Below, piece by piece: positions 827 to 19,153 of a DNA stretch of 48,445 bases. Source of the DNA: an uncultured Nitrososphaerota archaeon (GTDB lineage Archaea; Korarchaeota; Korarchaeia; Korarchaeales; Korarchaeaceae); the NCBI GenBank assembly GCA_964618805.1, contig CAZUBM010000016.1:1-48445 (forward strand), in the 5' to 3' direction. The notes under the pieces are model-generated. The model worked only from the letters and a program-made list of their open reading frames with translations, searched no databases and was not told the DNA's origin. Numbering within the stretch: the first letter of the stretch is position 1; each line of letters starts with the position of its first letter. A program made the translations under genes and the position numbers.

Positions 827-933
827 GAACCCTGGTAATTGGCTATATGAGGGATGAGAAAATAATGCTGCGCGTTCCCTGGTATCTTGTTGGATATGTG
901 CTTACATGCGCGTCAATCCAGTTTATACCTTGC

Positions 934-2382: not shown

Positions 2383-2409
2383 ATCTTCGATGTCGATAAC
2401 TTTCTGCAG

Positions 2410-2445
2410 TTAAAAATGCTTGCTTAGAAAGCGACGAAAGGGTTG
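2410..2445 (-). promoter_or_regulatory. TATA box (TTTTTAA) with conserved upstream element CAACCCTTTCRTCGCTTTCTAA
   Basis: The TATA-like box lies about 30 nt upstream of the start. The same architecture occurs at 10837-10872 (21/22 identity in the element), with degenerate versions at ~6131-6167 and 601-623. Confidence 0.6.
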
Positions 2446-2491
2446 CAATACCAGGGAGGATAGAGACCTTATTGTGTCGCAGGTTCTTAGC
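2423..2491. repeat. Copy 2 of the ~70-bp direct repeat (includes PIN-gene-derived sequence)
   Basis: Direct alignment to 601-670. Confidence 0.9.
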
Positions 2492-2583
2492 TGCTTAAGA
2501 GAACAGAACTACTTGAACGTTCTAATTTAAAGTTGAATGGCGATGAAATCTTTTTGCGGGCTATCAGAATATAAATGGAGGGA

Positions 2584-3849
2584 TCAGTTTCTTCTTTTAA
2601 CTAGAAGGGCACATACGGCAGCAAGGACTAGGAAAATGATTAGAAGATAAGCTTTTCCAAAAACAGGTGGCTGTTCTGTGCTCGGAGGTGAGGTCGGCTC
2701 GATTTCAAATCCCTTATTGCTATACAACATAATCATTCCAACCCCCTCTGCTGAAGCGATGCCAACGGTAAGATACTCCCCATCTTTAGAGAAATCAAGA
2801 GAAATTATGGGTAAGTGACCAACAGAGATGTTCTCATCGCTCCAGAGGAGTCTTCCTTGCCTGCTGAACAAGTAAATGGACGAAAAATCGTAGTTTACCT
2901 CTGCAGCCGCTATGTACATCCCGTTGGGAGAGATCTCAACATCCACAGGCCATCTATCGTATCGCCTTTCTTGTTTCCAAAGGACAGAACCGTTCTTGTT
3001 CAGGAGATAAAAACGATGCTCGTCTGCTGCAGCTATATATGTCCCGTCAGAAGAGATCGAAACCGACGAGATCATTTGGCCGAAATGCCAGAGCAGGCCA
3101 TTCCTGTCAAAGAAAAAGAGACCTTCAGGAGCTCCCAGCGCTACGTATTTCCCGTCAGAGGAGATACGAACTTCGTTGGGGAAAGGCGCTGGTTTGATCC
3201 TCTTTTCGAAAGAGAACTTCAACGTCAAATTTCCTTTTTTGTCCAGAAGGAAAAGAGTTCGACGACCAGCAGCTGCTACATAAGCCCCATCGGACGATGT
3301 GGAGATGCTAGCTATGACATCGTTCTTGACCTCAAACCTCCAAATAAGATCTCCCTCCCTACCGTAGAGGGAAATGGAGTGATAATCATCTCTGATCAAC
3401 CGTCCTCCAGCCGCTATGTAGCTACCGTCCTGAGATATTGAAACGGAGTTGTACATCACCTCAGTGAAGTTCCACAGCAATCCTCCTTTTTCATCGAAGA
3501 GCTGAATTCCCCGATCTTCACCCACAACCATGAACTTCCCATCCTGAGATAGATCTATGCTTACCCCATAGTCTACCGTTCGCTTCCAAATCAAATCTCC
3601 TTTCGCATCGAACATGAAAACCTCGCCAAAATATAGCCATTTGTCGGCAGACTCGTTTATCACGCTAACTCCAAGAGCAATACGGCTTCCGTTGGAGGAT
3701 GCAGAAATAGAAGGTGAACCAAAGTAGTCTCTCCGTATTTCATAGGTCCAAAGGGGCTCCCTGTAAATTGGTTCTTGTGCTGTGGCCGCATCTAGCGATA
3801 TAAGTAGGACGAGAACCGAAATTAAAATAAGAGGTTTTTGAACCATCAT
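2584..3849 (-). CDS. Secreted WD40/PQQ-like beta-propeller protein with C-terminal TM anchor
   Basis: Signal peptide ending in AATA, about 7 repeats of V-S-I-S-x-D-G-x-Y-I-A...L-F/L-D/N-x-x-G-x-L-L-W, Pro/Thr/Ser linker, TM helix and KRR tail. Confidence 0.88.
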   Translation of the reverse strand: MMVQKPLILISVLVLLISLDAATAQEPIYREPLWTYEIRRDYFGSPSISASSNGSRIALGVSVINESADKWLYFGEVFMFDAKGDLIWKRTVDYGVSIDLSQDGKFMVVGEDRGIQLFDEKGGLLWNFTEVMYNSVSISQDGSYIAAGGRLIRDDYHSISLYGREGDLIWRFEVKNDVIASISTSSDGAYVAAAGRRTLFLLDKKGNLTLKFSFEKRIKPAPFPNEVRISSDGKYVALGAPEGLFFFDRNGLLWHFGQMISSVSISSDGTYIAAADEHRFYLLNKNGSVLWKQERRYDRWPVDVEISPNGMYIAAAEVNYDFSSIYLFSRQGRLLWSDENISVGHLPIISLDFSKDGEYLTVGIASAEGVGMIMLYSNKGFEIEPTSPPSTEQPPVFGKAYLLIIFLVLAAVCALLVKRRN

Positions 3850-3941
3850 CTTCTTTTAACATTTGAAAATATATATTCTTGCAAAAAGGACTATCACATT
3901 TGAAGTTAACAGAATAATCAAAGCTTATTTTTGGAAATCAA

Positions 3942-4331
3942 TTAGATATTTTCTCCGATAGAGAGAGGAAGTTTTCTAATATTGTCTAATTTAATACCAA
4001 GTGTTTGACATCTTCTCCGAAGATAGCTAAAATCGAGCTTTTCAAATTGTCTAATAAGGATCCCAACGATATCCATAATATCTTTTTCAAGACCCAATAG
4101 CAATTTATGAGCTATTAGATCCTCAGGAGAGACCAAGTTTATTTCCTTTCTATCAAACTCAATTCTCACCTTCCTACCGAAGGAGAAATCTTCCTTGGAA
4201 ATTAACATAATATGAAGCCAGAAATTAGGAGAGAGACCAAGGATTAGGCTCCTCTTTCGACGCTCTTCCAGTTCTTCTGAATCTAAGCCGACCAGAACAT
4301 CGATATCTTTAATTTTCCTAGGAAGATTCGT
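3942..4331 (-). pseudogene. Remnant of a nucleotidyltransferase (AbiEii/DUF6036-like)
   Basis: ORF 3942-4208 has the C-terminal SPEDLIAHKL...EKDIMDI...KLDFSYL signature. The upstream fragment reads PRKIKDIDV (DxD motif) in a disrupted frame. Confidence 0.6.
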
Positions 4332-4630
4332 GTATATAGATGTTCTTGTTTATACAGATGGATCGCATAAGGATCTTCTGAAAGCAGATATTTTCAATTC
4401 TAATAGGCTCTGTTTGAAAATAGATTTCATATCAACTTGTGATGAGCTACCGTTTAGGAAAAGAGTGGAAGTTACTCATAACTCTCAGACTATCTACTTT
4501 ATTCCGGTGGAGCATATACGTGAGAACTGCATTCCTGTAGCTTTTTGGAAATACTTTGCTACTCCAAGAGCATTGTCCATAGATGACTAACGTTTAAGAC
4601 AGACCTTCCAATTAAGAGTGTGAAACGATA

Positions 4631-4653
4631 TAGTCATCTTCTATAGATGACTA
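4631..4653. repeat. 9-bp perfect inverted repeat TAGTCATCT-N5-AGATGACTA just past the stop of the 4659 gene
   Basis: Read directly from the sequence. ATAGATGACTAA also occurs as a direct repeat at 4579-4590 and 4643-4654. Confidence 0.7.
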
Positions 4654-4658
4654 AGTTT

Positions 4659-6107
4659 TTACAGTATTTGCGTTTTAGCTAGCATTAAGGCGACAATTAT
4701 GATGATTAGGGAGATAACTAGAGGTAAGATGATCTCTCCTCCTCTCCCCACCTCCACTTGACTTGGGGGAGGAGACTGTATAGGCGAAACGATTACGCTC
4801 TTCCCCCTCTTAATTGCCTCATTCACCCAACCGGTTAGATCCTCAAACTTCTCTCCATCAAAACTCATGAGGTACCCCTTACTTGTCCCCCAGTATCCTC
4901 TCTCCCTAGCGCATATTAGCCAACGCCCATCGCCCCACCCGATCTCGTCTATACTTACCGCCCAGACATCCCTCAGAGAGCAAGAGAGGATCTCCGGAGG
5001 GAGAACTAACTCCCATCTTCTATCCTGGAGCTTCAGAAGATAGCTATATCCATCGGATCTAACGAAAGAAATGAGCCAGTACTCTCCGTTCCAAGCAAGG
5101 GAGCTGCAAGAAGAAGAATTCAGGGATTGGGATAGGTCGGCAACTAGCTTAAGTTCGCATCCCTCTATCTTTAAGATCCTGCCATTGGTACCGATGAGCC
5201 AGTACTTCCCGTTCCAAGCGACCTTAGCTACTTCTCCTCTAGCAAAGCTAAGGCTGAGCAGGGACTTCCCCGCCTTAACCTCCATGAACCTTCTACCATC
5301 AAAGAAGAATAGTCCCTCGATTTTCGCCGGATTTTCAACGCTTCCTAAGGAGCGGGAGGCTGGAGCTAACCAGTGAGTCCCATTTGACATTTCACCCCAT
5401 ATCTGAGGCGGCTTTTGCCAAAGCACATACCCATAAGGTATAAGCGAGCTTAGGTTCTTCGTCTCTTTGCCATCGTAAAGGTAGAGAGTCTGATCTCTAG
5501 GGTTGACGCCTCTTGCAACATATATGAGAATCGAGCTCCCATTGTCTATCAGCTCGACGCTTAAGTTGGCTTTCGAGGGCATTCCTTCAGATAATGGGAG
5601 CAGATCGTAGGCATCGCTGGTCAAGACTTGGGTCAACCCATTTTTCCATGCAATCAATGAGTAATTGATGGGATTGTATGGAATCCTGTTCAGGAGTAGG
5701 AAGACCTTGTCGAACCCCTCTGCCCTCTCGATGTCGGAGGGGGATTGCGGGATAATGGTGAGGTTCCTACCGTCATAGGCAAAGGCCTTGCAGTAGTATA
5801 TCCCGTATATCCCGAGGAAGCATTCCCCCGTCCACTTAATACCCGGATGGATGTACCCCGGAACGTGGCCAACACGCGTGAACCTCGATCCATCGAATCT
5901 GACAAGCCAGCCATCGGATGTACCGATGAGCCAGTACTCGCCGTTCCAACCGATTGTTGTGATCCTTCTGGTCTCTCCTTCTGCACGCCAACTTTCGTTC
6001 TCAAGGAAGTTCGATGTCATCCCTATAAACCTCACTACATTAGAAGCCATCAGTGCTCCAATTACCAAACACACCAAAAGGAAAGGTCTTCTCCTCCAGA
6101 AACACAT
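4659..6107 (-). CDS. WNGxYWLI beta-propeller surface protein (paralog 2)
   Basis: Collinear with 934-2382. I moved the start from 6344 to ATG 6107 (MCFWRRRPFLL) because both the signal peptide and the upstream DNA align with paralog 1. This gives 482 aa. Confidence 0.85.
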   Translation of the reverse strand: MCFWRRRPFLLVCLVIGALMASNVVRFIGMTSNFLENESWRAEGETRRITTIGWNGEYWLIGTSDGWLVRFDGSRFTRVGHVPGYIHPGIKWTGECFLGIYGIYYCKAFAYDGRNLTIIPQSPSDIERAEGFDKVFLLLNRIPYNPINYSLIAWKNGLTQVLTSDAYDLLPLSEGMPSKANLSVELIDNGSSILIYVARGVNPRDQTLYLYDGKETKNLSSLIPYGYVLWQKPPQIWGEMSNGTHWLAPASRSLGSVENPAKIEGLFFFDGRRFMEVKAGKSLLSLSFARGEVAKVAWNGKYWLIGTNGRILKIEGCELKLVADLSQSLNSSSCSSLAWNGEYWLISFVRSDGYSYLLKLQDRRWELVLPPEILSCSLRDVWAVSIDEIGWGDGRWLICARERGYWGTSKGYLMSFDGEKFEDLTGWVNEAIKRGKSVIVSPIQSPPPSQVEVGRGGEIILPLVISLIIIIVALMLAKTQIL

Positions 6108-6340
6108 CTTCAGTGTAGGAAAACTTTCAATTGATAAAAACAAATGTCTAAAACCAAAACAGGGTTGAAACTTTGAGAATAGCATTATACGATTTTTTAG
6201 AAAGCTGGAGTCGCAACAGATGTGATTCATAGTTGGGTTCTTAATCCTGGAAGCCGCCCTCCAAATCTTTTTTAATCTCATTAGCTCTTGAGTTAGGCTT
6301 TTAATAGCCTCAATCAGGGACTCGTATTTCTTGTAGCACA

Positions 6341-9109
6341 TCATGAGTACTTGACTCCTCTAAAAATCAATAGAATTGCTACAAGAGCGATTGTCGCAAA
6401 GATAACCCATATGAAATAGGCAGAAATCCCTGGGGCTTCAGGAACATTAGGAGGGGTAGATACAGCCATTTCAGCCCCTTTGTTGTAGTAAAAGAATATC
6501 TCTGCATCATGATCATAATTGACGACAGTCACGATGTACCTTCCATCTGAGGACATATCTATTGGACCGCCATAGGATCCATTCTTCGACCAAAGAAGTT
6601 CCCCTTCCTTATTATATACAAAAATCCTGTTTCCGCTTCCAGCCAAGGCATACCTTCCATCTGAAGAGATATCAACATAAACAGGTCCTCCTCCATACCT
6701 CCATAAGAGGTTTCCGTTCTTGTCCAAGAGGCTAATTAAATTCTGGAAGTCCCCAGCTACGACATAGCTTCCGTTGGAGGAGATAGAAACTGAGAAAACA
6801 TTCCAACCATACCTCCAAAGGTTATTTCCTTCATTATCAAAAAAGAATAGACCCTCAGGAACACCCAGAGCTATATAATCACCGTCGGGAGATATGAAAA
6901 CCACGCTTGGAACCCTAGATTCGGGTTTGACGATTCTTGGGACTTCGAACCTGAAGAGGAGTTCTCCCTCTTTGCTAAGTAGGTAGAGAGAATAACGACA
7001 CGCTATTGCAACATGGCTTCCGTCGGAGGAAATGGATACGTCGTCTACGGTGTCGTTAACATAGAACATCCAAATGAGGTGTCCTGATCTGTTGAATAGA
7101 CAGGCGACGTCAGACCAGCCTGATGCCCAACTGTACAGACCACCTACTGCTGTGTAGCTCCCGTCAGAGGATATGGAAACGCGAGTATAGCGAATCTTGC
7201 TGAAGTTCCACACGAGTTCTCCTCTTCTGTTAAAGAGGTAGGCTCCTTCAATGTCACCCACAGCCAAATACCTTCCATCTTGGGATAATGCCACCTCTGG
7301 AGAGGTATCCGTCAGGTGGCTCCATAGCAGCGTACCATTTGAATTGAAGAGGAATACCCTACCTGCTTCAGCAGATTTGTTTACCATGCTTACTCCTATG
7401 GCCAAATATCTTCCATCGCCAGATGTTGAGAGAGAGTTTGCCCAGATTTGGTCAGCACCCTCGATCCTGTAGCTCCAGAGAGGACTTGAACCGTTGGACA
7501 TCTGCAAAAAGGTTATGTGGAGCGGAGATAGCGCAGATATTAAGACAAGTACCAAGAGCCGCGCTCTGGATGACACATTCAAAAATTCTCCTAGCACAAT
7601 TCTCCTAGCACAGAAAATAAAGAGAGTTATAAGAACTACGGTTAGAACTAAGATTAGGATTTTTCCCTTATTTTGTCCCTCTGTACCTCCTGAAGGTTCT
7701 TCTGAGGTCTTAGGAGGAGAGCCAGTTAATTTAGGCTCAGACGCTGGAATCGTTGCACTGCCCTCTTCTATAGCCTCATTGAGCCACCTCATCACATCCT
7801 TGAAATTATTTCCATCGTAAAGGAAGAGGTAGCCTCTACCATAGTGTCCGCGTTTGTACTCACGAGCAGAAATAAGCCACCTTCCGTCGCCCCACTTGAC
7901 CATTTCTATCACTAAGGGCCACATTCTTGAAGTAGAGTTTAGGATTTCAGGCGGGGGTATGAGGACCCATTCCTGTCCATCGTACTTGACGAGATAGCTC
8001 CCTACTAGATGGCTTCCTTCTCCTAGTATAAAATAGGATATGAGCCAGTACTCCCCATTCCACGACATGGAGGTGGGATAAGCAGACTGAAGCTCTGTAT
8101 TGGAAAGATCCAATGAGAGCTCAATATCGTTTCCCCTTAAGATCAAGATCTTTTCCCCTGCACAAATGAGCCAGTAATCCCCGTTCCAGCCAACTATTGG
8201 GGGATGCTCTCCGTTTAGGTAATCGATCAGCGAGGAATCCGCTTTAACTTCAATGAACTTCCTACCATCGAACAAAAATAGATTGACTATCCTTGCTGGC
8301 TTTACAGGATCTCCCAGAAAGGTTGACGCTGGGGCAAGCCAGTGTGTCCCGTTGGACATATCGCCCCATATCTGCCTGTGTACTGCTGGGGGAGCCTGCC
8401 AAAGCACGTAGTTTCGAGGTAGCAAGGAACTCAGGTTTATCAGTTCTTTACCATCGTATAAGAACAGGGCTTGATAGGAAGGATCGTTCCTGCTTGCAGC
8501 ATAGACCAAGATCGAACTACCGTTGCTTATCAGCTCGACGCTTATTGGGCTGAAAGGGTTGGCTGAGAAGTTCACAAACCTAGAAGCTGGGAGGAGCTGA
8601 AACACGTCCTTCACCAGAACTCTCCATGAAGTACCGTTCCACGCCGATATGGAGAGGTAATTGTAGGGGTACTCCCAGTCCACTATGAGGCAGTTCTCCC
8701 CGAAGCCGGTAACCCTCTTAACCTCGCGAAATGGGCTGCTCTTGGGCAGCTTAACGAGCCTTACCCCATCGTATGCAAAGGCATTGCAGTAATATACTCC
8801 AGCTATTGCCAAGAAGTACTTACCTGTCCACTCAATGGAGTTCTCATGAATCCAGTCAGGATCAATGTATTCCACTAAGGTGAACTTAGAGTCCTTAAGC
8901 TTTACAAGGCATCCTTCGTTAAACGTCCCAATTAGCCAGTACTCGCCGTTCCAACCTATCGCTGTTACGCTCCTGGCCGAGCGTTGAGACTGGGGAATAT
9001 CCGTTAAAGAGGTACTCTCAGATTTTCCAACGAGGGTCCTTGCTTCGGGAATTATAAACAATGCAAGGATTAAGCATACCAAAAGAAGGGAAATCCTTCC
9101 CATTAACAT
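6341..9109 (-). CDS. Fusion protein: WNGxYWLI propeller (paralog 3) + two TM segments + WD40/PQQ-like propeller + TM anchor
   Basis: Residues 1-~500 are homologous to 934-2382 and 4659-6107, and residues ~515-922 are homologous to 2584-3849. The internal hydrophobic pair corresponds to the old anchor plus the old signal peptide. Confidence 0.85.
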   Translation of the reverse strand: MLMGRISLLLVCLILALFIIPEARTLVGKSESTSLTDIPQSQRSARSVTAIGWNGEYWLIGTFNEGCLVKLKDSKFTLVEYIDPDWIHENSIEWTGKYFLAIAGVYYCNAFAYDGVRLVKLPKSSPFREVKRVTGFGENCLIVDWEYPYNYLSISAWNGTSWRVLVKDVFQLLPASRFVNFSANPFSPISVELISNGSSILVYAASRNDPSYQALFLYDGKELINLSSLLPRNYVLWQAPPAVHRQIWGDMSNGTHWLAPASTFLGDPVKPARIVNLFLFDGRKFIEVKADSSLIDYLNGEHPPIVGWNGDYWLICAGEKILILRGNDIELSLDLSNTELQSAYPTSMSWNGEYWLISYFILGEGSHLVGSYLVKYDGQEWVLIPPPEILNSTSRMWPLVIEMVKWGDGRWLISAREYKRGHYGRGYLFLYDGNNFKDVMRWLNEAIEEGSATIPASEPKLTGSPPKTSEEPSGGTEGQNKGKILILVLTVVLITLFIFCARRIVLGEFLNVSSRARLLVLVLISALSPLHITFLQMSNGSSPLWSYRIEGADQIWANSLSTSGDGRYLAIGVSMVNKSAEAGRVFLFNSNGTLLWSHLTDTSPEVALSQDGRYLAVGDIEGAYLFNRRGELVWNFSKIRYTRVSISSDGSYTAVGGLYSWASGWSDVACLFNRSGHLIWMFYVNDTVDDVSISSDGSHVAIACRYSLYLLSKEGELLFRFEVPRIVKPESRVPSVVFISPDGDYIALGVPEGLFFFDNEGNNLWRYGWNVFSVSISSNGSYVVAGDFQNLISLLDKNGNLLWRYGGGPVYVDISSDGRYALAGSGNRIFVYNKEGELLWSKNGSYGGPIDMSSDGRYIVTVVNYDHDAEIFFYYNKGAEMAVSTPPNVPEAPGISAYFIWVIFATIALVAILLIFRGVKYS
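7584..7611. repeat. Perfect 2 x 14-bp tandem duplication (AATTCTCCTAGCAC) at the fusion junction
   Basis: 7584-7597 is identical to 7598-7611. Confidence 0.95.
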
Positions 9110-9202
9110 GTCATCAGTAATGGAGGATTAAAGCGGTAAAAAACTCTTGTTTAAGTTTTCCCCTAATTTGATGCTAATTTTCTGTAAGTTCCAGCTTACC
9201 GT

Positions 9203-9700
9203 TTAGTAACTTAAATTCTTCGGAGAAAGTCTTTTTCTTCTTATGAAAGACAATGTACAAGCAGTAAATCCCTTGAAAACGGAGTAAATAGGATGCATAG
9301 CTAAGGACGAAGAGACTGATATCATTGCGAGCTTTATGTATTCGACTTTATTGTTAGCTTGAATGTACTCCATCGACCCAGTAACTATAATGCCTATTAT
9401 CGAGCTGGCTACACCTCCAATTAAATCAAAGGCTAAAATAGTTCCTATTATCCTTCTATATTCTTTGTATAAATCGGTTGGTGTACAAAGCAAGTAGATA
9501 AGACCAAAGTATAAGGGAAGCTCAACATACTGATAGAAAGTCCGTAACAATGAGAACGTAACACGCTTTTTCATCCATGCTTCAGACTTCTCAGGAGGGA
9601 CGATAGGAAAAACAAACATTAGGTAGAAATTATACATATGAAGAAGAAAGCTTGTGAAACTAAACACGAACGCTACAATCATAAGACGCCTAAACATCAT
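9203..9700 (-). CDS. Small multi-pass membrane protein (about 4 TM), unknown function
   Basis: About four hydrophobic segments. ATG 9700 overlaps the upstream TGA (ATGA) and follows GGTGG, indicating translational coupling. Confidence 0.75.
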   Translation of the reverse strand: MMFRRLMIVAFVFSFTSFLLHMYNFYLMFVFPIVPPEKSEAWMKKRVTFSLLRTFYQYVELPLYFGLIYLLCTPTDLYKEYRRIIGTILAFDLIGGVASSIIGIIVTGSMEYIQANNKVEYIKLAMISVSSSLAMHPIYSVFKGFTACTLSFIRRKRLSPKNLSY

Positions 9701-10821
9701 CCACCACACAGCCTTATGGTTGTAGACCGACTGCTTCCAAGCGAACAAGGATCGTCAGTAGCTAGCCTAACAGTTCCCCATTGCGAACCAGAGGCGAATG
9801 AGTTAGTTACTACCGTTATCTCGAATCCAGCGCCGAGTCCAACCATCGTAAACTGAGCGAGATTGCCAGCTTTACTTACGTAAGCATATCCAATTCCCCT
9901 GGTCTTTCTAATGCTCGCATATGCTATGGAGGAACCTTGGGGCATCCATACTGAAGCTCTCCCTGATGTTGTTACACTAAAATCGATAGTTGAAGATCCA
10001 TAAAAAGAGACCCCGTTTCCTCCTGAATAAGGCACATAACTAGTGAAAGTCCCCCAAATACAGACATTAGTTGTAGTGTACTCATCGCATTCGCCTCCAG
10101 AACATGTCCGAAGACTTTTCTTGTCACAATATCCATTTACAAGAGGATTAACCCTTACGGACACAAATCCTGTGGAGTAAAGGATTTTTCTGTCATACTC
10201 CTTCAGATGAGATTTGATTAGACCCTCCAACTTAAGAATTAGATCATTAAGCATACTATATGATGTTGCAATGTTTTGATTTATCGGATCATCACTCGAT
10301 CTATATCTCGATATAAGTTCGCCCATGACCTTTCCTAAGTTATCATAGTGACCAGTCAAGTTTTGTTCAAAAGGCTGGAAAATGATTTCTTGGGTCGATC
10401 TAACTCCTCTATTCGATTTAAATTCACAGTTGCAATCATCATAATGAGATATGAGCACTATGTCTGTCTCTGCTAGACGATATGAATGTATCCTATTAGG
10501 AATTAGAATTGTAGTTACGAATACCGCAGATCCATCTTGAATAAAATAAGAAAAGAGCACATATCCCCTAACCGATCTTTTATATGACTTTATTGCAAAC
10601 TCATAAAACACAATCCGAGCGTCTTCAACTACTTCAGAAAGTATAAGATTAAGGTTTTCAATAACGTAATTTCTAGGAATGCCAATTAATATTCCAGGAG
10701 CATAGTCTATAGATTGTGATCCGAGGATCCTAATTCCCTCTCTAGACTGAATTATTCTGTGAACAATTGGTTCACGAGAGGGAGCAGATAATGTCATTAA
10801 TGGAGTGAACACAACTGTCAA
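9697..10821 (-). CDS. Hypothetical protein, probably secreted and possibly 5'-truncated, with a Cys- and Gly/Ser/Thr-rich C-terminal domain
   Basis: 374-aa ORF that looks AT-richer than its neighbours. The hydrophobic run WIILLTVVFTPLMTLSA lacks an upstream start. No family recognised. Confidence 0.65.
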   Translation of the reverse strand: MTVVFTPLMTLSAPSREPIVHRIIQSREGIRILGSQSIDYAPGILIGIPRNYVIENLNLILSEVVEDARIVFYEFAIKSYKRSVRGYVLFSYFIQDGSAVFVTTILIPNRIHSYRLAETDIVLISHYDDCNCEFKSNRGVRSTQEIIFQPFEQNLTGHYDNLGKVMGELISRYRSSDDPINQNIATSYSMLNDLILKLEGLIKSHLKEYDRKILYSTGFVSVRVNPLVNGYCDKKSLRTCSGGECDEYTTTNVCIWGTFTSYVPYSGGNGVSFYGSSTIDFSVTTSGRASVWMPQGSSIAYASIRKTRGIGYAYVSKAGNLAQFTMVGLGAGFEITVVTNSFASGSQWGTVRLATDDPCSLGSSRSTTIRLCGG

Positions 10822-10978
10822 TAGGATTATCCAACCTTAAAAACTCTGGTTTAGAAAGCGATGAAAGGGTTGAAAACTTAAGAAAAGAGAGTAAAATGGG
10901 AATAAAGACCTTTCATCCAGAGAAAAATCTTTTTGCAATGTTCCAATTATTTAAGCGAACTAACGAATGTGCAATGGA

Positions 10979-11389
10979 TCAAAAAGTTCTCTCAATGAAC
11001 TTCTCGAAGTCCTTGTCATTGGACACTATTCTCTTGCATTTGAGCCTCTTTGCGACGCTGAGATGAATTGAGTCCTCCAAATCAAGCCCTTGAGAGACGA
11101 AGGATAAGGCAGATAGGAAGTCCTCAACTTTTAGATTTGCTATCCTTATCCCCGTCTCAATGACAGCCCTAACAATCTCGTTGACGAAGTCGTAATCCCT
11201 AAGGTTTCTTCCAGCAAGCCCTGAAGCTATTACAAGGACTTCCCATACGGTCAAGGAGCAAGTGATGAATTTATCTGGCTTTTCCTCAACCATTCTTATC
11301 CAATCAAGCGCCTTTGACCCAAATTTTGGATCTCCTGCCAGCCAGTAGACGAAAACATTCACGTCTAAGTAGTCCTCTCCTTCCACCAC
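10979..11389 (-). CDS. vapC: VapC PIN-domain toxin
   Basis: YLDVNVFVY, TVWEV, LEDSIHL and SNDKDF supply the acidic PIN tetrad. It overlaps the antitoxin gene. Confidence 0.92.
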   Translation of the reverse strand: MVEGEDYLDVNVFVYWLAGDPKFGSKALDWIRMVEEKPDKFITCSLTVWEVLVIASGLAGRNLRDYDFVNEIVRAVIETGIRIANLKVEDFLSALSFVSQGLDLEDSIHLSVAKRLKCKRIVSNDKDFEKFIERTF

Positions 11390-11604
11390 TTTGCCATCGC
11401 CTCAATTACCACGCTATCTAAGTCCTCAGGGACTTCTGCCCTTAGAATCCCGTAATATCTCGTTGAGACTGGTTCTAAGGATTCTATCACAAGCTTTCTT
11501 CCCTCAACTCTCATCCTAACCCTCTTTCCTATCTTAAGGGCCTTCCTTACCCTCTTTGGAATTGTCACCCTCCCCTTCTCATCCACGTTTGCAATTAGCT
11601 CCAT
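11365..11604 (-). CDS. vapB: AbrB/MazE-type antitoxin
   Basis: VDEKGRVTIPKRVRKALKI is the AbrB signature, and the gene lies directly upstream of the PIN toxin. Confidence 0.92.
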   Translation of the reverse strand: MELIANVDEKGRVTIPKRVRKALKIGKRVRMRVEGRKLVIESLEPVSTRYYGILRAEVPEDLDSVVIEAMAKWWKERTT

Positions 11605-11843
11605 TGGCCCACCATTTTGATTAATCCCACTTTTTGTATTTTAATATATTGTGGGCGAAAGCAGTTAGCATCTCATAATGAAAAAAGATCGATATAACTT
11701 ACCTCTAGGACTTAGTAGGGCGCTTTGCGAGGTCTTCCTTTTCTTGAACAGACCTTAAGCGTGCTCCAATGAACATTTATTACTCGTATTAGCGTTACCT
11801 CCAGTCACAAACATTAATTTGGCCAAGGGGGTTCAGGAGTAGG

Positions 11844-13262
11844 ATGGCCTTACAAGGAAGTTCTGATTTTGAAGGGAAGCTTGAAAGGGTATTTGGCAGA
11901 GATGCGGTTGTTGAGAAGGGCATACACTTGAGCTTGGGACCTTGGGGAGTTCCAAGGTTCATAGAGGAATATTTGATCATGAGGGAGTGCGCTGGCCTTT
12001 CTGCAACTAGCTGTACGAAGCGGGTTTCAAGCATCCTCAGGAGGTTCCGTCCAGAGCCATCGGAGAAGAACCTTAAGCTTGATCAGTTAATGAGCGACGG
12101 CGAGCTAACGTTGATGGACTTCTTTACCGTAACGACTGACATAAAGAAAGGAGTTCACAGGCTTTCCATACCCTGTTTGGACTTGAAGAAGGGGATGGTC
12201 CATCCAAGGGTGCTTAGAGAGCACGAAAACTTGCTAAGAAATGGAGTTTGGGGCATGGGAAGGCTCCTTTACGATCCAAAGCTCTCATTTGGAGCTAAGG
12301 ATTCTGATCCTGTCTCCTTGGTGGAGCTCGTCCCTTACCAGATTTCTTCCCTAGACATATCGGAGTTTCAGGAGGCTAGAAGCAAGTTTTCAGATGAGGA
12401 ATGGTTAGACCTACTCATAAAAAGCCTTGGCCTGAATCCTGAAGCCTATGAAGAGGACCAGAAGCTTTACTTTTTGGCTAGGCTCATTCCTCTTGCGGAG
12501 CCCAACACTAACATGATGGAGTTTGGACCCAGAGCCACTGGAAAGACTTTCCTATACAGGAACATCTCGCCTCTCGTTAGGATAGTATCTGGAGGAGTGA
12601 TAAGCCCTGCCCAGCTGTTCTACCACAAGGTTCACGGCACGGTAGGGCTTATAGGAGTTATGGACGTCGTTGTCTTCGACGAGATTCAGTACCTCAAGTT
12701 CTCTGGTGCTGAGGAGATATTGGGTAAGCTGAAAGACTACATGGCAAGCGGACACTTTGAGAGAGGAGCTAAGCAGGCTGCAAGCGGCTGTTCCTTGGTG
12801 TTCATGGGGAACATTGACTGGGACGTTAAAGAAGGTTTGGACATTGACAGGACGATACCTAGGTTTGCTAGGGATCCAGCCTTTATGGATAGGATCCATG
12901 GCCTAATACCGGGTTGGAGGCTTCCTAAAATTACGGAGGAAGAGCATTTGGCCAAGGGGAAGGGACTTGCTCTTGACTATCTAGGATCAGTGCTCCACGA
13001 GCTTAGGATGATGAACTTCAGGGAGGAGGTAAAAGGGCTGGTTGACATAGTAGGGAATCCGAGCATTAGGGACCAGCAGGCTGTAATTCGCCTCCTTTCA
13101 GGATTTCTGAAGATATTGTACCCTGACATGAACTTTGACGGTTCGCTCTTGCCAAAGATCGTTCAGATAGTTGAAGAAATGAGGGGAATAGTCAGGAAAT
13201 GGCTGGCAGCCAAGCTCCCCCATGAATACGGAGAGGACTTCGAGGTGGTGCTCCTCAGTTGA
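11844..13262 (+). CDS. brxL: BrxL-family AAA+ ATPase lacking the C-terminal Lon protease domain (TIGR02688-like)
   Basis: Motifs EFGPRATGKT (Walker A), SGG...LFY...GLIG..DVVVFDEI (Walker B), KDYMASGHFERG, VFMGN, AFMDRIHG.IPGW.LPK and RDQQAV all match BrxL. At 472 aa it ends where the Lon domain would begin. Confidence 0.88.
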   Translation: MALQGSSDFEGKLERVFGRDAVVEKGIHLSLGPWGVPRFIEEYLIMRECAGLSATSCTKRVSSILRRFRPEPSEKNLKLDQLMSDGELTLMDFFTVTTDIKKGVHRLSIPCLDLKKGMVHPRVLREHENLLRNGVWGMGRLLYDPKLSFGAKDSDPVSLVELVPYQISSLDISEFQEARSKFSDEEWLDLLIKSLGLNPEAYEEDQKLYFLARLIPLAEPNTNMMEFGPRATGKTFLYRNISPLVRIVSGGVISPAQLFYHKVHGTVGLIGVMDVVVFDEIQYLKFSGAEEILGKLKDYMASGHFERGAKQAASGCSLVFMGNIDWDVKEGLDIDRTIPRFARDPAFMDRIHGLIPGWRLPKITEEEHLAKGKGLALDYLGSVLHELRMMNFREEVKGLVDIVGNPSIRDQQAVIRLLSGFLKILYPDMNFDGSLLPKIVQIVEEMRGIVRKWLAAKLPHEYGEDFEVVLLS

Positions 13263-14470
13263 GAAAATCCAGTTATAACTACATACTGACAAGGAGAACT
13301 TTAGAAGATGTCATGGAAAGGTTTAGGAGAAGAGTGGAAGAAGAGGGAGAGCCTCCCGAGGATGCCAAAGCCAGCGTGGTTCTAGAGGCAACTCCTGCGC
13401 TAGTTGCTGCTTGGAAGGGCCTGTACAAGAAGATAGCAGGGGAAAAGCACATATTAAGGGCTGCCAGCGGGATCCATGTCCTTTTCCCGGAGGAAGACTC
13501 TATCAGGATAAGGCCTTTCAGCGAATACCTTCTTCAAGGCGTCATAATGCAGTCTGAAGAGGGTTTCGACCTCAGCCTCTTGAGAAAGAGGATAAGCAAG
13601 GGAGCTGCGGCTAAAGCCCTGAAAGAGTTTGTAAAGGAATCTACGGGCGTTCCAAAGGCGAGGGTGGAGTTTGAAGGATGGAAGGAAGTCCTCTTAGGAG
13701 TGAGGTGGAAGGTCAGGTTTAGCTTAGAGGAGGGATCTGGCGAGTTCCTGATCTCTGACCTCTCTGAGGAAGAGATCTTGGATTGGCCGCCAATAGGCGA
13801 TAGAAAAGCTATAGAGATCGCCAAAAGAGAAGCCATAGCTCTCGCTGCAAGGAGTAAGAAGAAAAGGCGCAGAGCTGAGGGAATAAGAATCATTAGGAGT
13901 TGGGACTCTTTCTTCGGTGAGAGAAAAGGGATAAGAACCAGAGCTAGCCTCTTAAATGAAGATGAAAGGAGATACCTGCTTCTAGCGAGGGCTGAGGACA
14001 AAAGATTCCTTATAGAGCTTAGCAAGCTATCAGGAAGAGTTCTAGGGCACAAAGAGGTTCCGACAGAGGAAGAAATTGAAGAGATCATTAGAGATGAAGG
14101 AAAGGCCTTAGGAATCGACATAAGGATAGAGAAGGAGCTGTATAAAGGAGAAAAATTGCAGATAAGGGCTTCAGATGAGAAGGGGTGGTATTCTCTCCTT
14201 TTTGTTTGCAATTCAGAGGAGATTAGACTCTCTGAGATAAGAGTAACTCCTACAGGTGTTGAGGAAATGCTTAGGCTTTTCTCAGAGGATCCCAGGGCTA
14301 AAGTAATTTCACACGCCTACTCTAAAGGTCTATTGAAGATAAGCGGTGAAGGGATCAAAGGCAAGTACTCCTTGCTAATCGACGTTAGCAAGCTTGGAGA
14401 ACCAAAGTTATTGGACTTCAGGGTAAGAAAAGGGTTGCTTGATAGGATAAAAAGGCTTTTCCACGGCTAA
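13259..14470 (+). CDS. Hypothetical, highly charged cytoplasmic protein coupled to the brxL-like gene; possible PepSY-like repeats
   Basis: TTGA 4-bp overlap with brxL and 403 aa with host-like codon usage. It has repeated helix + beta-hairpin units such as AIEIAK...RYLLLARAEDKRFLIELSKLSGRVL. No catalytic motif recognised. Confidence 0.75.
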   Translation: MRKSSYNYILTRRTLEDVMERFRRRVEEEGEPPEDAKASVVLEATPALVAAWKGLYKKIAGEKHILRAASGIHVLFPEEDSIRIRPFSEYLLQGVIMQSEEGFDLSLLRKRISKGAAAKALKEFVKESTGVPKARVEFEGWKEVLLGVRWKVRFSLEEGSGEFLISDLSEEEILDWPPIGDRKAIEIAKREAIALAARSKKKRRRAEGIRIIRSWDSFFGERKGIRTRASLLNEDERRYLLLARAEDKRFLIELSKLSGRVLGHKEVPTEEEIEEIIRDEGKALGIDIRIEKELYKGEKLQIRASDEKGWYSLLFVCNSEEIRLSEIRVTPTGVEEMLRLFSEDPRAKVISHAYSKGLLKISGEGIKGKYSLLIDVSKLGEPKLLDFRVRKGLLDRIKRLFHG

Positions 14471-14659: not shown

Positions 14660-15082
14660 ATGGATGAAGATAGATTAAACAGATTACTCACTGAAATCGA
14701 GGATTTAAACAAAAAGGCAGAAGATCTGCTTTCAATACCTTTAGAGAACTTTCTTAGGGATTTCAAAGCCATATATGCCCTTAAAATGATTTTAGTTGAG
14801 ATGACTGAAATAATTCTGAGCATAGGACTCCTAATATTGAGGGAAGGCTTCAAGATAAGAGAGATAGAAGGATATGTCTGGATTTTAAGGGAATTGGTAA
14901 AGAGGGGGGTCTTGTCTAACGAGATTGGAGAGAATTTAGAGGCGCTTGTCAGGTTAAGAAACATGATAATTCACAGATATTGGGAAGTAGACGAGAGAAG
15001 ACTATATAGGGAGTCTAAGGAAAGCATTGGTCTGATTAAGAAGTTTATCGAGGAGGTTAAGAACTATGCTTCAAAGGATTGA
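14660..15082 (+). CDS. HEPN (DUF86/HepT-type) RNase toxin
   Basis: RNMIIHRY fits the R-x4-H-x-Y catalytic motif, and the gene overlaps an MNT gene. Confidence 0.9.
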   Translation: MDEDRLNRLLTEIEDLNKKAEDLLSIPLENFLRDFKAIYALKMILVEMTEIILSIGLLILREGFKIREIEGYVWILRELVKRGVLSNEIGENLEALVRLRNMIIHRYWEVDERRLYRESKESIGLIKKFIEEVKNYASKD

Positions 15083-15464
15083 AGAGAAGGAAAAGCTCAG
15101 ACTTTATCGACTCTCCAAAGATGAGAAAAGGGAGTTAATCAAGAGGATAAAGGATATTCTAAACGAAAAGGATGAAATAATTGTTGCTATCATTTACGGC
15201 TCTTTTTTGGAAGGTCTTAACTTTAGGGATATAGATGTTGCTGTCTACGTTGGGAAAAGGATCAATCCACTGAAATATGGGGCTAAACTTGAGAAACAGT
15301 TAGGAGAGTTGGGTTTCCCGTTTGATGTAAGGCTGCTTAACTTTGCCCCGCCTTGGTTCATAAAAAAGGTTGTAGAGAAGGGGTTATTGCTCCTCGACAA
15401 GGAAAAAATCATTGATGCACTCCATCTAGCTGCTTTAGAGGAACTTGGACTTGATTTTAGGTAG
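15066..15464 (+). CDS. Minimal nucleotidyltransferase (MNT/MntA-type) antitoxin
   Basis: IIYGSF...RDIDVAV and FDVRLLN.AP motifs. Confidence 0.9.
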   Translation: MLQRIEEKEKLRLYRLSKDEKRELIKRIKDILNEKDEIIVAIIYGSFLEGLNFRDIDVAVYVGKRINPLKYGAKLEKQLGELGFPFDVRLLNFAPPWFIKKVVEKGLLLLDKEKIIDALHLAALEELGLDFR

Positions 15465-17887: not shown

Positions 17888-17917
17888 AGGCTATTTTTTG
17901 TTAGGCTATTTTTTGTT
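17888..17917. repeat. 2 x 15-bp tandem duplication AGGCTATTTTTTGTT
   Basis: 17888-17902 is identical to 17903-17917. Confidence 0.9.
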
Positions 17918-17963
17918 AGAAAATTATATATTAAAATATATCATTTGGTTTACTTTGGTACAG

Positions 17964-18725
17964 ATGAAGCTAGTGGATGAGCACTCCTTTAAGGTCCTTT
18001 CCAGAGTCGATGAACTCGGAACCTCAAGATTCAGCGATTTGATGAAGGAGATAAGAAATCCAAGAACTCTTAGTAGGAGGCTTAAGGAACTGACGTCGAT
18101 GGGATTGCTTTCCCGTTCAAATGAAGGATATAGGCTAACAGCCAAGGGAAGAAGGGTCCTTAAGCTAATGAAAAACCTTCTAATGGAGCTGTCAAGAAGA
18201 GATCTTGTTAAGAATCTTGATAGAATTCCCCACAGGATGTATTCCTCGCTTTTAAGAAGGTATTGCGAGATACTTAGGGAAAAATTTGGGGAGAGGCTTA
18301 TTGGAATTCTCCTTTTTGGATCCATTGCAAGAGGAGACTGGAAAAAGGACAGTGACATAGATCTCCTCCTTGTCATAAGGGGATGGAAGGACAAAAAGGT
18401 TTGGGAAAGGTTAAGGGAGCTATCGATAGCAAAGGAGATTTTAAGAGAAAGCAGGGAGTTTCATGAGGCGCTATCTAAGGGCTACTTCCCTTCCATTCAG
18501 CACTATGCTCTTGATCCCGAAGAAGTACAAATGTTTCATAGCATATATCCTGATGTAGCAGCTGATGGGATAATTCTGTACGATGAAGAAGGCTTCATGG
18601 ATAGGCTCGTATCCTCTATAAGGGAGAAGTTGAAGAGAAATGGTGCTTTAAGGATCTCTACACCTGATGGAAGGTACTATTGGATTCTGAAAGATGTCAG
18701 GGCTGGGGAGGTCTTTGAGCTTTGA
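17964..18725 (+). CDS. Winged-HTH (HxlR/ArsR-like) fused to an MNT nucleotidyltransferase
   Basis: N-terminal RFSDL...NPRTLSRRLKEL...YRLTAKG and C-terminal LFGSIARGDWKKDSDIDLL. I moved the start to ATG 17964, downstream of the TATA-like box. Confidence 0.88.
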   Translation: MKLVDEHSFKVLSRVDELGTSRFSDLMKEIRNPRTLSRRLKELTSMGLLSRSNEGYRLTAKGRRVLKLMKNLLMELSRRDLVKNLDRIPHRMYSSLLRRYCEILREKFGERLIGILLFGSIARGDWKKDSDIDLLLVIRGWKDKKVWERLRELSIAKEILRESREFHEALSKGYFPSIQHYALDPEEVQMFHSIYPDVAADGIILYDEEGFMDRLVSSIREKLKRNGALRISTPDGRYYWILKDVRAGEVFEL

Positions 18726-19153
18726 CTACGAACTTAGATCTAGCTAGAAAGGGAATAAGGAGGGCTTCCAGATGGCTTCAGGGTGCAAAGAGGGCTCTTG
18801 AGGACAAAAGATGGGATGATGTCGTCTACTGTTCCCAAATGGCAGTCGAGCAGTCCTCAAAGGCTATCCTTATTCTATTTGGAATAGATTACCCTAAAGA
18901 ACACGATATAAGCGATGTTTTCATTAGGCTCTCATCAAGAGAAGATATACCGCATTGGTTCAGAGAAAAAGTTCGCAATATGTGCTCAATAATATCAGAA
19001 CTTGCAGAACTAAGAGGATTGGCTGCTTATGGATATGAAATGGGTGTTGATGAAGATTACTTCACAGAATATGCCCCGGATGCCTATAATTTGGCAGTTG
19101 ATCACTATAATGCATGTAAAAGGCTTATTATGGAGTTATATGGAGAGAACTAA
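18722..19153 (+). CDS. HEPN domain protein (PF05168 type)
   Basis: SQMAVEQSSKAIL...PKEHDIS motif and a 4-bp overlap with the MNT gene. Confidence 0.88.
   Translation: MTTNLDLARKGIRRASRWLQGAKRALEDKRWDDVVYCSQMAVEQSSKAILILFGIDYPKEHDISDVFIRLSSREDIPHWFREKVRNMCSIISELAELRGLAAYGYEMGVDEDYFTEYAPDAYNLAVDHYNACKRLIMELYGEN

What the first reader, a model, noticed from the sequence alone, without database searches (positions are those of the whole stretch)
11844..14470. Stand-alone Lon-less BrxL ATPase plus an unknown partner: possible new two-gene defence or DNA-processing module
Seen: a BrxL-family ATPase with intact Walker A/B motifs and no protease domain is translationally coupled (TTGA overlap) to a 403-aa charged protein with repeated PepSY-like units. 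The pair is bracketed by VapBC and HEPN-MNT modules, and no pglZ, pglX, brxC, brxA or brxB occurs in the 48 kb. Known: BrxL is an MCM-related, DNA-binding AAA+ component of type 1 and type 4 BREX systems. Inference: outside BREX this pair may be an independent anti-viral or DNA-translocating machine, with the partner acting as sensor or adaptor.
Basis: partly seen in the sequence, partly recalled or inferred. Interest (0 to 1): 0.82.

Follow-up and report, generated by a model that had tools for sequence, protein, structure and literature searches.

The report
BREX-independent BrxL ATPase with docking partner
An archaeal genome carries a short BrxL DNA-binding ATPase, normally a part of BREX anti-virus systems, permanently paired instead with a fast-evolving protein of unknown family that is predicted to plug one invariant four-residue motif into the ATPase, which looks like a small, undescribed BrxL-based system.

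Summary
A 472-aa Lon-less BrxL (TIGR02688, intact Walker A/B) overlaps by 4 nt (TTGA) a 403-aa basic protein with no hit in Pfam, NCBIfam, PADLOC or PDB sequences. VapBC and HepT-MNT flank the pair.

It is not a BREX orphan. PglZ, DUF499/BrxC, BrxB and PAPS reductase are absent from the own genome (93.7% complete). PglZ is absent from 5 of 5 other pair-bearing genomes, four of them 99% complete.

The pairing is conserved. In 9 of 9 genomes of the phylum (43 searched) that hold both genes, the partner lies directly downstream of BrxL, across two genera. Partner-linked BrxLs form their own clade (branch 1.08, SH-aLRT 100).

The partner evolves much faster than BrxL (25-30% against 54% identity). 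It keeps only K133, G161, RSWD (213-216) and G259 invariant.

A co-fold passed (0.67; best control 0.00), and its confident interface on the partner is residues 207-220, which contain RSWD.

"PepSY-like" is not supported by sequence and only weakly by fold. An anti-virus role is inferred, not shown: neither protein has a recognisable effector domain.

Verdict: a new BrxL-based two-gene module, a new variant of a known kind. It is rare, with 9 profile hits among 1.84 billion representative proteins.

The parts
11844..13262 (+). Short (Lon-less) BrxL AAA+ ATPase, 472 aa, of the partner-linked clade
   Evidence: PF20442 + PF13337; TIGR02688 421.9 bits (cut-off 329.3); 8EMC E 1.6e-66 over residues 34-451. 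It sits in a 24-row clade apart from 108 other short BrxLs.
12525..12548 (+). Walker A, GPRATGKT (residues 228-235)
   Evidence: G228, P229, R230, A231, G233 and K234 are invariant in 30 BrxLs.
12666..12683 (+). Walker B, VVVFDE (residues 275-280). E280 aligns with E280 of 8EMC, whose E280Q mutant loses restriction.
   Evidence: paper PMC10164562, section 20.
13259..13262 (+). TTGA overlap of the partner's start codon (TTG) with the BrxL stop codon (TGA)
   Evidence: Read directly.
13242..13247 (+). GAGGTG Shine-Dalgarno-like motif, 12-17 nt upstream of the TTG start
   Evidence: Read directly. Its function is inferred.
13259..14470 (+). Partner ('RSWD protein'), 403 aa, basic, of no known family. 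It has an N-arm (1-205), a linker carrying the motif, and a C-arm (226-403).
13877..13918 (+). Partner residues 207-220, the predicted BrxL-docking peptide. It contains the family-invariant R213-S214-W215-D216 (nt 13895-13906) and follows a KKKRRR basic run.
   Evidence: Invariant columns. Low pLDDT in the monomer model. It is the only confident interface on the partner in the co-fold. Sequence.
10979..11604 (-). Context, not part of the module: VapC (PIN, 10979-11389) and an AbrB/MazE-type antitoxin (11365-11604)
14660..15464 (+). Context, not part of the module: HepT (14660-15082) and MNT nucleotidyltransferase (15066-15464)

Best explanation
The two genes form a self-contained, BREX-independent module.

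[quoted passage not shown] It belongs to a distinct clade. Gene 2 is a fast-evolving basic protein of a new, very sparse family. In every genome that holds both, gene 2 is encoded directly downstream of a BrxL of that clade.

Predicted: the partner binds BrxL through a short linear peptide centred on its invariant RSWD motif. The peptide is unstructured on its own. It inserts into a groove formed by the BrxL N-terminal domain (residues 15-21, 43-48, 64, 68), the OB-to-ATPase linker (137-138, 163-178) and the ATPase lid (376-379). Two arms of helix-plus-sheet modules are left free. These arms vary in sequence and in number between lineages.

Inferred: by analogy with the solved BrxL, the BrxL ring loads on double-stranded DNA in an ATP-dependent way. 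The partner's variable arms act as the specificity, sensing or regulatory element that decides where or when BrxL engages. The most likely role is accessory defence against viruses or other mobile DNA by blocking their replication, without DNA methylation and without PglZ.
For: Linkage: among 43 genomes of the phylum, BrxL_ATPase matches 12 and the partner profile matches 10. Nine hold both (G000, G040, G014, G018, G029, G031, G032, G033, G034). In 9 of 9 the partner starts within about 45 nt downstream of the BrxL match on the same strand (coordinates; ORFs).

Independence from BREX: the own genome has no PglZ, DUF499, BrxB or PAPS_reduct. PglZ is found in 0 of 5 other pair-bearing genomes, four of them 99% complete. 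DUF499 is found in 1 of 5, and there about 142 kb from the pair.

Own clade: all 8 partner-linked BrxLs fall in a 24-row clade separated by a branch of length 1.08 (SH-aLRT 100) from 108 other short BrxLs. The 108 include the 4 that are methyltransferase- or BrxC-linked (132 rows, quick IQ-TREE).

Rate asymmetry at the same loci, BrxL against partner identity: 54 against 25-30%, 71.5 against 39%, 88 against 74%. In run X4, a contig keeps the end of BrxL but replaces the first ~330 nt of the partner with 324 unlike letters.

Motif: across 16 members at 19-87% identity, only K133, G161, R213, S214, W215, D216 and G259 are invariant.

Binding: the co-fold score was 0.67 (runs 0.70, 0.67, 0.67) and the best of 3 controls was 0.00. 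The mark was reached by 58 of 80 solved complexes and by 2 of 110 mismatched pairs. The runs agree in at least 63% of contacts, and partner pLDDT is at least 76. My own alignments were used, so these counts hold only roughly. The confident partner interface is residues 207-220 only, and the tightest contacts are BrxL Y165/Q166/V163/Y43 with partner S214/W215. No solved relative of the partner exists (0 hits at E<=1), so a pass from memory is unlikely.

Clade-specific groove residues: Y165 in 24 of 24 clade members against F in 101 of 108 others; S/T168 in 24 of 24 against Y in 66 of 108.

Accessory character: the pair is present in 7 of 21 genomes of one genus and in 2 of the 5 genomes of the window's own genus (G000 and G040), with a remnant in a third (G041). 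It occurs in three different neighbourhoods, two of them next to toxin-antitoxin or Csx1 genes. The C-terminal module is duplicated in long forms (second stretches at E 1.2e-22 and 4.0e-22).

BrxL function: the solved BrxL is an ATP-dependent DNA-binding ring needed for phage restriction (PMC10164562, abstract and section 20).
Against: Neither protein has a recognisable nuclease, protease, methyltransferase or other effector domain. In BREX, BrxL is not known to restrict on its own. PADLOC does not know the partner.

In four genomes (G014, G018, G031, G034) the pair sits among housekeeping-looking genes (DUF354, DUF401, GT2, MBL hydrolase), not in a defence island.

All context evidence comes from one phylum and two genera, so the 9 genomes are not independent. 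Distant family members (P0011-P0017) could not be placed in their genomes.

The co-fold is 1:1, whereas BrxL works as hexamers or heptamers. The groove could be occluded in the ring; this was not tested. The co-fold is a model's confidence, not a measurement.

Pore residues of 8EMC that affect DNA binding are only partly kept: R104 aligns with K101, S264/R265 with H264/G265, and K287 with S287 (K285 lies nearby). I read these from the alignment.
Confidence: 0.55

Rival explanations
1. The partner is mainly a negative regulator, an inhibitor or 'antitoxin-like' lock on BrxL. It holds BrxL monomeric or off DNA through the RSWD peptide until it is displaced or degraded during infection or stress. 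The freed BrxL then clamps onto DNA and arrests replication, including the host's, as in abortive infection.
For: The docking groove includes the BrxL N-terminal region near L131. L131 aligns with L134 of 8EMC, a subunit-contact residue whose mutation abolishes multimer assembly. The genes are translationally coupled, which suits fixed stoichiometry. The pair sits among toxin-antitoxin pairs in the window. The partner is basic and BrxL acidic. The weak fold hit to a PepSY-type protein fits an inhibitor role only if my recollection is right that PepSY domains act as inhibitory or regulatory modules.
Against: The fast evolution and module duplication of a 400-650 aa protein are more than a simple lock needs. 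Nothing shows that BrxL is toxic. No protease or degradation signal was found.
Confidence: 0.15
2. The pair is a replication or maintenance module of an integrated mobile element: an MCM-like loader or helicase with an origin- or host-factor-binding adaptor. On this view it is not a host defence.
For: BrxL is structurally MCM-like (PMC10164562 abstract). The distribution is patchy, the neighbourhood changes and toxin-antitoxin genes are adjacent. That archaeal mobile elements often carry MCM genes is recalled, not tested.
Against: No integrase, capsid or plasmid gene lies beside the pair in any of the three contexts. The flanks include DHDPS, carbamoyltransferase, glycosyltransferase and NrdD. 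The partner has 0 matches in viral contigs, plasmids and phages. Close BrxL relatives have 0 matches in viral contigs. In 0 of 38 viral-contig BrxL loci (30-39% identity) is there a partner-family gene. Only the two genes travel together.
Confidence: 0.12
3. The pair has a chromosomal housekeeping role in some Korarchaeota, for example an auxiliary DNA replication, repair or chromatin factor.
For: In G014, G018, G031 and G034 the pair lies on the same strand directly after DUF401 and DUF354 genes, among metabolic genes.
Against: The pair is present in only 9 of 43 genomes of the phylum, and it is absent from many genomes that are 96-99% complete. A remnant in G041 shows that the partner can be lost, and a BrxL split between two frames in G036, which does not carry the pair, shows that BrxL genes decay in this phylum. 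The partner evolves too fast for a core factor.
Confidence: 0.1
4. The BrxL is an orphaned remnant of a BREX (type 1 or type 4) locus, and the downstream gene is an unrelated neighbour.
For: NCBIfam and PADLOC both label the ATPase as BREX BrxL. The short form is the Type-4 BREX form according to PMC12839542, section 19.
Against: No PglZ in 6 of 6 pair-bearing genomes tested. No linked BrxC. No PAPS reductase in the own genome. The adjacency is conserved in 9 of 9 genomes across BrxLs only 54% identical. The BrxLs form their own clade. The co-fold passes on the invariant motif.
Confidence: 0.03

Closest known systems
Type-4 BREX BrxL (short BrxL, NCBIfam TIGR02688)
   Same: The same domain set: BrxL_N plus an MCM-like BrxL_ATPase with no C-terminal Lon or HKD domain. 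It scores above the TIGR02688 cut-off. PMC12839542, section 19, describes Type-4 BrxL as lacking C-terminal extensions.
   Different: According to passages of that paper, Type-4 BREX has BrxC, PAPS reductase, DUF4007 and PglZ. PglZ, BrxC and PAPS reductase were searched for here and are neither at the locus nor in the genome; DUF4007 was not searched for. The BrxL is in a separate clade and is coupled to a protein family not reported in the parts of that paper that I read.
Type-1 BREX BrxL (Acinetobacter, PDB 8EMC/8EMH; NCBIfam TIGR02653)
   Same: Homologous over residues 34-451 (E 1.6e-66). Walker B E280 and subunit-contact L134 (here L131) are kept. The groove residues Y43, P164, Q166 and D378-Y379 are also kept (read).
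   Different: The ~200-aa Lon-like C-terminal domain that mediates ring-ring dimerisation in 8EMC is missing. The protein scores below the TIGR02653 cut-off (282.9 against 628.25). Some pore residues differ. There is no BREX partner set.
Short BrxL next to a PglX-like methyltransferase or a DUF499/BrxC-like ATPase in sister genomes (G038, G040:C96)
   Same: The same phylum and the same short BrxL architecture. In three of the four loci (G038:C122, G038:C169, G040:C96) a 300-364 aa protein with no Pfam hit follows BrxL directly.
   Different: At G038:C106 the proteins that follow are 213 and 352 aa. The BrxLs fall in the other branch of the tree. Their downstream proteins are not partner-family members, and none carries RSWD itself. 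A DNA-modification or BrxC component is present, unlike in the window.
PepSY-domain proteins such as YpeB (PDB 5boi)
   Same: The predicted partner is built of several helix-plus-antiparallel-sheet units. Foldseek lists the YpeB C-terminal domain at E 8.6e-4.
   Different: TM-scores are only 0.14/0.24. There is no Pfam PepSY match in 0 of 16 members. The partner is cytoplasmic-looking, with no hydrophobic segment. The N-arm alone has no PDB analogue at E<=0.001.

Membership tests
BrxL, short form (NCBIfam TIGR02688; Pfam PF20442 + PF13337) | Full-length match above the curated cut-off | tested here: met
   421.9 bits against a cut-off of 329.3, model positions 2-445 of 449. PF13337 E 8.8e-107 and PF20442 E 1.1e-23.
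BrxL, short form (NCBIfam TIGR02688; Pfam PF20442 + PF13337) | Intact AAA+ Walker A and Walker B motifs | tested here: met
   GPRATGKT at 228 and VVVFDE at 275. They are invariant in 30 homologues. E280 aligns with the catalytic E280 of 8EMC.
BrxL, short form (NCBIfam TIGR02688; Pfam PF20442 + PF13337) | No C-terminal Lon-like or HKD domain | tested here: met
   The protein ends at residue 472. The alignment to the 679-aa 8EMC stops at residue 452. TIGR02653 is below its cut-off.
BrxL, short form (NCBIfam TIGR02688; Pfam PF20442 + PF13337) | Hexameric or heptameric ring, DNA-dependent ATPase | not testable with these tools
   Known for 8EMC/8EMH only (PMC10164562 abstract).
BREX system (any type) | PglZ present in the locus or genome | tested here: not met
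   0 matches in the own genome (93.69% complete) and in 0 of 5 other pair-bearing genomes. The controls rang in 2 of 14 genomes.
BREX system (any type) | BrxC/PglY (DUF499-type ATPase) linked to BrxL | tested here: not met
   0 in the own genome. 1 of 5 other genomes, about 142 kb from the pair.
BREX system (any type) | Modification enzyme in the locus (PglX methyltransferase, or PAPS reductase for Type 4) | tested here: not met
   No PAPS_reduct in the genome. Eco57I-type matches occur only on other contigs (C22, C61) or at distant places. None lies in the 48-kb window by these coordinates.
BREX system (any type) | BrxA and BrxB (Type 1) | tested here: inconclusive
   BrxB has 0 matches and its control rang. 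BrxA has 0 matches, but its control rang in 0 of 14 genomes, so the search is uninformative.
PepSY domain (Pfam PF03413), for the partner | Sequence match to the family model | tested here: not met
   0 of 16 family members match at E<=1.
PepSY domain (Pfam PF03413), for the partner | Helix packed on a small antiparallel sheet, in tandem copies (definition recalled) | tested here: inconclusive
   The secondary-structure pattern is compatible. The only support is 5boi at E 8.6e-4 with TM 0.14/0.24. The VIA-align libraries were unavailable.
Known defence-system proteins (PADLOC-DB v2.0.0), for the partner | Match to any of 5027 models | tested here: not met
   0 families at E<=0.01. DefenseFinder models were not on hand.

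The most novel reading that the evidence does not exclude
The pair is a minimal, methylation-free and PglZ-free BrxL immunity system. A hypervariable adaptor recruits or gates an MCM-like DNA clamp through an RSWD peptide. The groove it uses has core residues (Y43, P164, Q166, D378-Y379) that are conserved in BREX BrxLs too, so it may be the long-sought general docking site through which BrxL is coupled to its partners in BREX.
Probability: 0.25. Interest if true: 0.8.

Novelty: new variant of a known kind. Interest (0 to 1): 0.63.

Why it matters
BrxL is needed for phage restriction in some BREX systems, yet how it is recruited and what it does are open questions (PMC10164562 abstract; PMC12839542 sections 4 and 19). 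[quoted passage not shown]

Here BrxL has a single obligate partner and no other BREX component. This reduces the problem to two proteins and one predicted peptide-groove contact, which can be tested by pull-down and point mutation.

If the groove is a general docking site, the finding gives a handle on BrxL coupling in BREX. If the pair restricts viruses, it is a new minimal defence system that lacks a recognisable nuclease. It also adds a protein family whose N-terminal arm has no solved structural analogue by the search that was available.

Tried and rejected
Partner annotation led nowhere. Pfam, NCBIfam and PADLOC gave 0 hits. Pfam at E<=1 over 16 members gave only sub-threshold noise (DUF167 in 3 of 16, best E 0.0066). 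The PDB sequence profile search gave 0 hits at E<=1. The ESM Atlas best score was 0.86, with no named family.

Fold searches gave little. The whole-model PDB and viral searches returned only TM<=0.2 hits to beta-propellers and uncharacterised viral proteins. I reject these as repeat-sheet artefacts. The N-arm alone had no PDB hit at E<=0.001.

The internal-repeat test by hhalign printed nothing at first because of my parsing. The repeat run gave a best probability of 1.9%.

Wider context for distant partner relatives (P0011-P0017) could not be obtained. The genome-contig scan gave 1 locus. The metagenome scan gave 3 loci, one of them the same contig as L003 and two cut inside the partner. The last large protein search with the diverse profile returned only 10 already known or close proteins.

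Fusion search: the exhaustive profile search listed hits of 158-650 aa only, so no BrxL-partner fusion was seen. I did not run the 'longer' or 'shorter' option of the search for homologous proteins.

Mobile-element searches were negative: viral contigs, plasmids and phages.

Expression: no RNA holder is listed, so nothing can be said about expression. Parts without contig cover are not interpreted.

The EVE-like reading of the N-terminal extension of P0021-P0023 rests on an Atlas score of 0.90 with low feature sharing and on my own recollection of PUA-like domains. It is a lead only, and Pfam finds nothing there.

Literature: the paper search for 'BrxL'/'TIGR02688' found 137 papers, of which 25 were listed. 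A search for 'TIGR02688', 'COG4930', 'PF13337', 'BrxL-like' and 'BrxL homolog' found 4 papers, seen as listings only. No listing, and none of the passages I read, describes a BrxL-plus-unknown pair outside BREX. I read PMC12839542 as passages plus the whole of section 19, and PMC10164562 as abstract plus section 20. Supplementary Data S1 and S3 of PMC12839542 may list BrxL neighbourhoods that bear on the novelty claim. Subscription journals are not covered.


Full report
WHAT IS THERE.

Two plus-strand ORFs occupy the stated coordinates: 11844..13262 (472 aa, ATG start) and 13259..14470 (403 aa, TTG start). A GAGGTG Shine-Dalgarno-like motif lies 12-17 nt upstream. A 240-nt spacer separates the pair from the divergent vapB, and about 190 nt separate it from hepT. 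It therefore looks like a two-gene unit of its own.

GENE 1.

It carries BrxL_N (residues 20-143) and BrxL_ATPase (158-464). It passes the curated cut-off of TIGR02688, a 449-position model of the short BrxL, and fails that of the long-form TIGR02653. Five PADLOC BrxL models also match it.

It aligns to residues 34-452 of the solved 679-aa BrxL (8EMC, E 1.6e-66) and ends where the Lon-like domain would begin. Walker A (GPRATGKT, 228) and Walker B (VVVFDE, 275) are intact and invariant among 30 homologues. E280 aligns with the residue whose E280Q mutation abolishes restriction (PMC10164562, section 20).

Reading the alignment, L134 of 8EMC (a subunit contact) aligns with L131, and R104 aligns with K101. 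The pore residues S264/R265 and K287 are not kept in place: they align with H264/G265 and S287, and K285 lies nearby.

GENE 2.

It has no hit in Pfam, NCBIfam or PADLOC. It is 36.7% charged, has pI 9.3 and has no hydrophobic segment. The family is extremely sparse. There are 9 proteins at 61% identity or more among 5.8 billion clusters. A profile search found 9 hits at E<=0.001 among 1.84 billion representatives, with lengths of 158-650 aa.

In an alignment of 16 members (19-87% identical to the window's protein), only K133, G161, R213-S214-W215-D216 and G259 are invariant.

AlphaFold2 gives a confident model (mean pLDDT 82.2, pTM 0.65). It has an N-arm of two helix-plus-long-hairpin units and a long helix (to about residue 206), a low-confidence linker (203-225) that contains RSWD, and a C-arm of three sheet-plus-helix units. 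Folded alone, the N-arm reaches pLDDT 84.9 but has no PDB match at E<=0.001.

Whole-model searches return only TM<=0.2 hits. One of them is the triple-PepSY YpeB C-terminal domain. PepSY is not detected by sequence in any of the 16 members, and the units are not similar to each other at profile level. However, long forms contain a second copy of the C-terminal ~100-aa module, so the family does grow by module duplication.

IS IT A BREX ORPHAN? NO.

The own genome (93.69% complete) lacks PglZ, DUF499/BrxC, BrxB and PAPS reductase and has only this one BrxL. The BrxA search was uninformative because its control did not ring.

Five other genomes with the pair, four of them 99% complete and one a single contig, have no PglZ. 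One has a DUF499 gene, about 142 kb from the pair. Eco57I-type methyltransferases exist elsewhere in these genomes but are not linked to the pair.

IS THE PAIRING CONSERVED? YES, WITHIN THE REACH OF THE DATA.

The phylum holds 43 genomes. Source names of close BrxL relatives point to Korarchaeota. BrxL_ATPase matches 12 genomes and the partner profile matches 10. Nine genomes have both, and in all nine the partner follows BrxL directly on the same strand. This holds in two genera whose BrxLs are 54% identical and whose partners are 25-30% identical.

The exceptions are informative:
- G041 keeps only a 44-residue partner remnant and no BrxL.
- G039 has a BrxL fragment at a contig end, and the BrxL of G036 is split between two frames.
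- The three BrxLs of G038 and the second BrxL of G040 follow a PglX-like methyltransferase or a DUF499 protein. What lies downstream of them is not a partner-family member.

Contigs from two further studies span the whole VapBC-BrxL-partner-HepT-MNT stretch at about 97% identity.

In a tree of 132 short BrxLs, all 8 partner-linked ones lie in a 24-row clade. A branch of length 1.08 (SH-aLRT 100) separates it from the other 108, which include the 4 methyltransferase- or BrxC-linked ones. This was a quick search with midpoint rooting, and long branches were flagged. The clade also holds proteins that their sources name as Thermofilum and 'Thermoproteota archaeon'. I could not retrieve their neighbourhoods.

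DO THEY BIND? PREDICTED YES.

A 1:1 co-fold scored 0.70, 0.67 and 0.67, against 0.00 for all three controls. The mark was reached by 58 of 80 solved complexes and by 2 of 110 mismatched pairs. The runs agree in at least 63% of contacts, and partner pLDDT is at least 76. My own alignments were used, so these counts hold only roughly.

The key point is that the confident interface on the partner is residues 207-220. This is the invariant RSWD stretch, which the monomer model left disordered. On BrxL it touches residues 15-21, 43-48, 64, 68, 137-138, 163-178 and 376-379.

Two independent lines of evidence, family-wide invariance and the co-fold, therefore pick out the same 14 residues. The partner has no solved relative, so a pass from memory is unlikely.

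The groove's core (F17, Y43, G137, P164, F175, D378) is conserved in all 132 short BrxLs. Y165 (24 of 24 in the clade, against F in 101 of 108 others) and S/T168 (24 of 24, against Y in 66 of 108) are clade-specific. Y43, P164, Q166 and D378-Y379 are also present in 8EMC (read).

HOW IT MOST LIKELY WORKS.

Shown by computation: a conserved, BREX-independent gene pair, an intact ATPase, a fast-evolving partner with one invariant peptide, and a predicted peptide-in-groove contact.

Inferred: the BrxL ring loads on dsDNA with ATP, as the solved BrxL does (PMC10164562 abstract). The partner's variable arms give specificity, sensing or gating.

A defence role is favoured by several observations:
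- Defence is the family's only known function.
- The distribution is patchy (9 of 43 genomes).
- A remnant in G041 shows loss of the partner, and a split BrxL in G036 shows that BrxL genes decay in this phylum.
- The pair occurs in three neighbourhoods, two of them next to toxin-antitoxin or Csx1 genes.
- The evolutionary rates are asymmetric.

Against a defence role: no effector domain was found, some contexts look like housekeeping, and all context evidence comes from a single phylum.

The rivals are a regulator or lock model, a replication module of a mobile element, a housekeeping factor and a BREX remnant. They are weighed in their own sections. The BREX remnant is essentially excluded.

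COMPARISON AND NOVELTY.

The ATPase is a bona fide member of the short BrxL family, but the system fails the defining BREX features. [quoted passage not shown] Nothing I could read describes this pairing, but supplements and subscription journals were out of reach.

I rate it a new variant of a known kind: a BrxL-centred two-gene module with a new partner family. Interest is moderate to high. It turns the open question of how BrxL is coupled to its partners into a two-protein, one-motif experiment. Its rarity, its restriction to uncultured archaea and the unproven function hold the score down.

Noticed in passing
window 17898-19153 (+): A second nucleotidyltransferase-HEPN pair: a 275-aa wHTH + NTP_transf_2 protein followed by a 143-aa HEPN protein. 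With VapBC and HepT-MNT, that makes three toxin-antitoxin-like pairs within about 8 kb.
   Followed up: partly
L032 (G038:C169) 1610-8009; L033 (G040:C96) 247-6386; L031 (G038:C106) 3352-10178; L030 (G038:C122) 3774-9835: In sister genomes a short BrxL lies directly downstream of a PglX-like Eco57I/MmeI methyltransferase (1226 and 1245 aa) or of a DUF499/BrxC-like ATPase (1122 aa). At G038:C106 a 751-aa methyltransferase and a 472-aa unknown protein precede it. Unannotated proteins follow in each case (300, 364 and 332+ aa; 213 and 352 aa at G038:C106), plus a DUF7680 protein at G038:C122. G040 has no PglZ (78% complete); G038 was not tested. These may be further BrxL-containing, PglZ-less variants.
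   Followed up: partly
proteins P0021, P0022, P0023 (no locus): Three BrxLs of the partner-linked clade (57-59% identical) carry an extra N-terminal region of about 200-270 aa with no Pfam hit. For residues 1-190 of P0021, the Atlas's nearest named cluster is an archaeal EVE-domain family, at score 0.90 with low feature sharing. This is a lead only.
   Followed up: partly
L048 (G041:C154) 1501-1632: A 44-residue remnant, 54.5% identical to partner residues 358-401, in a 99-aa frame with no BrxL nearby. It is apparently a decayed copy.
   Followed up: yes
L020/L024 (G036:C36 2387-3294): A BrxL ATPase split between two adjacent frames (model positions 2-141 and 134-296). It is probably a frameshifted pseudogene.
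   Followed up: no
L028 (G032:C2) 10460-11874 (-): Just upstream of the pair in G032, Csx1 is encoded as two overlapping ORFs: a CARF part (360 aa) and a HEPN part (122 aa).
   Followed up: no
window 13275-13606, in run X4: One 2471-nt contig matches the end of BrxL, replaces about 330 nt at the start of the partner with 324 unlike letters, and then matches again at 13606-13709. This is a strain with a strongly diverged partner N-terminus.
   Followed up: partly
window 2584-3849 (-), 6341-9109 (-), 9203-10821 (-): Two large beta-propeller (PQQ/WD40-like) proteins, one of 922 aa with hydrophobic segments at both ends. Next to them, two ORFs without any family hit (181 and 374 aa) lie in the window's lowest-GC stretch (0.38).
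   Followed up: no
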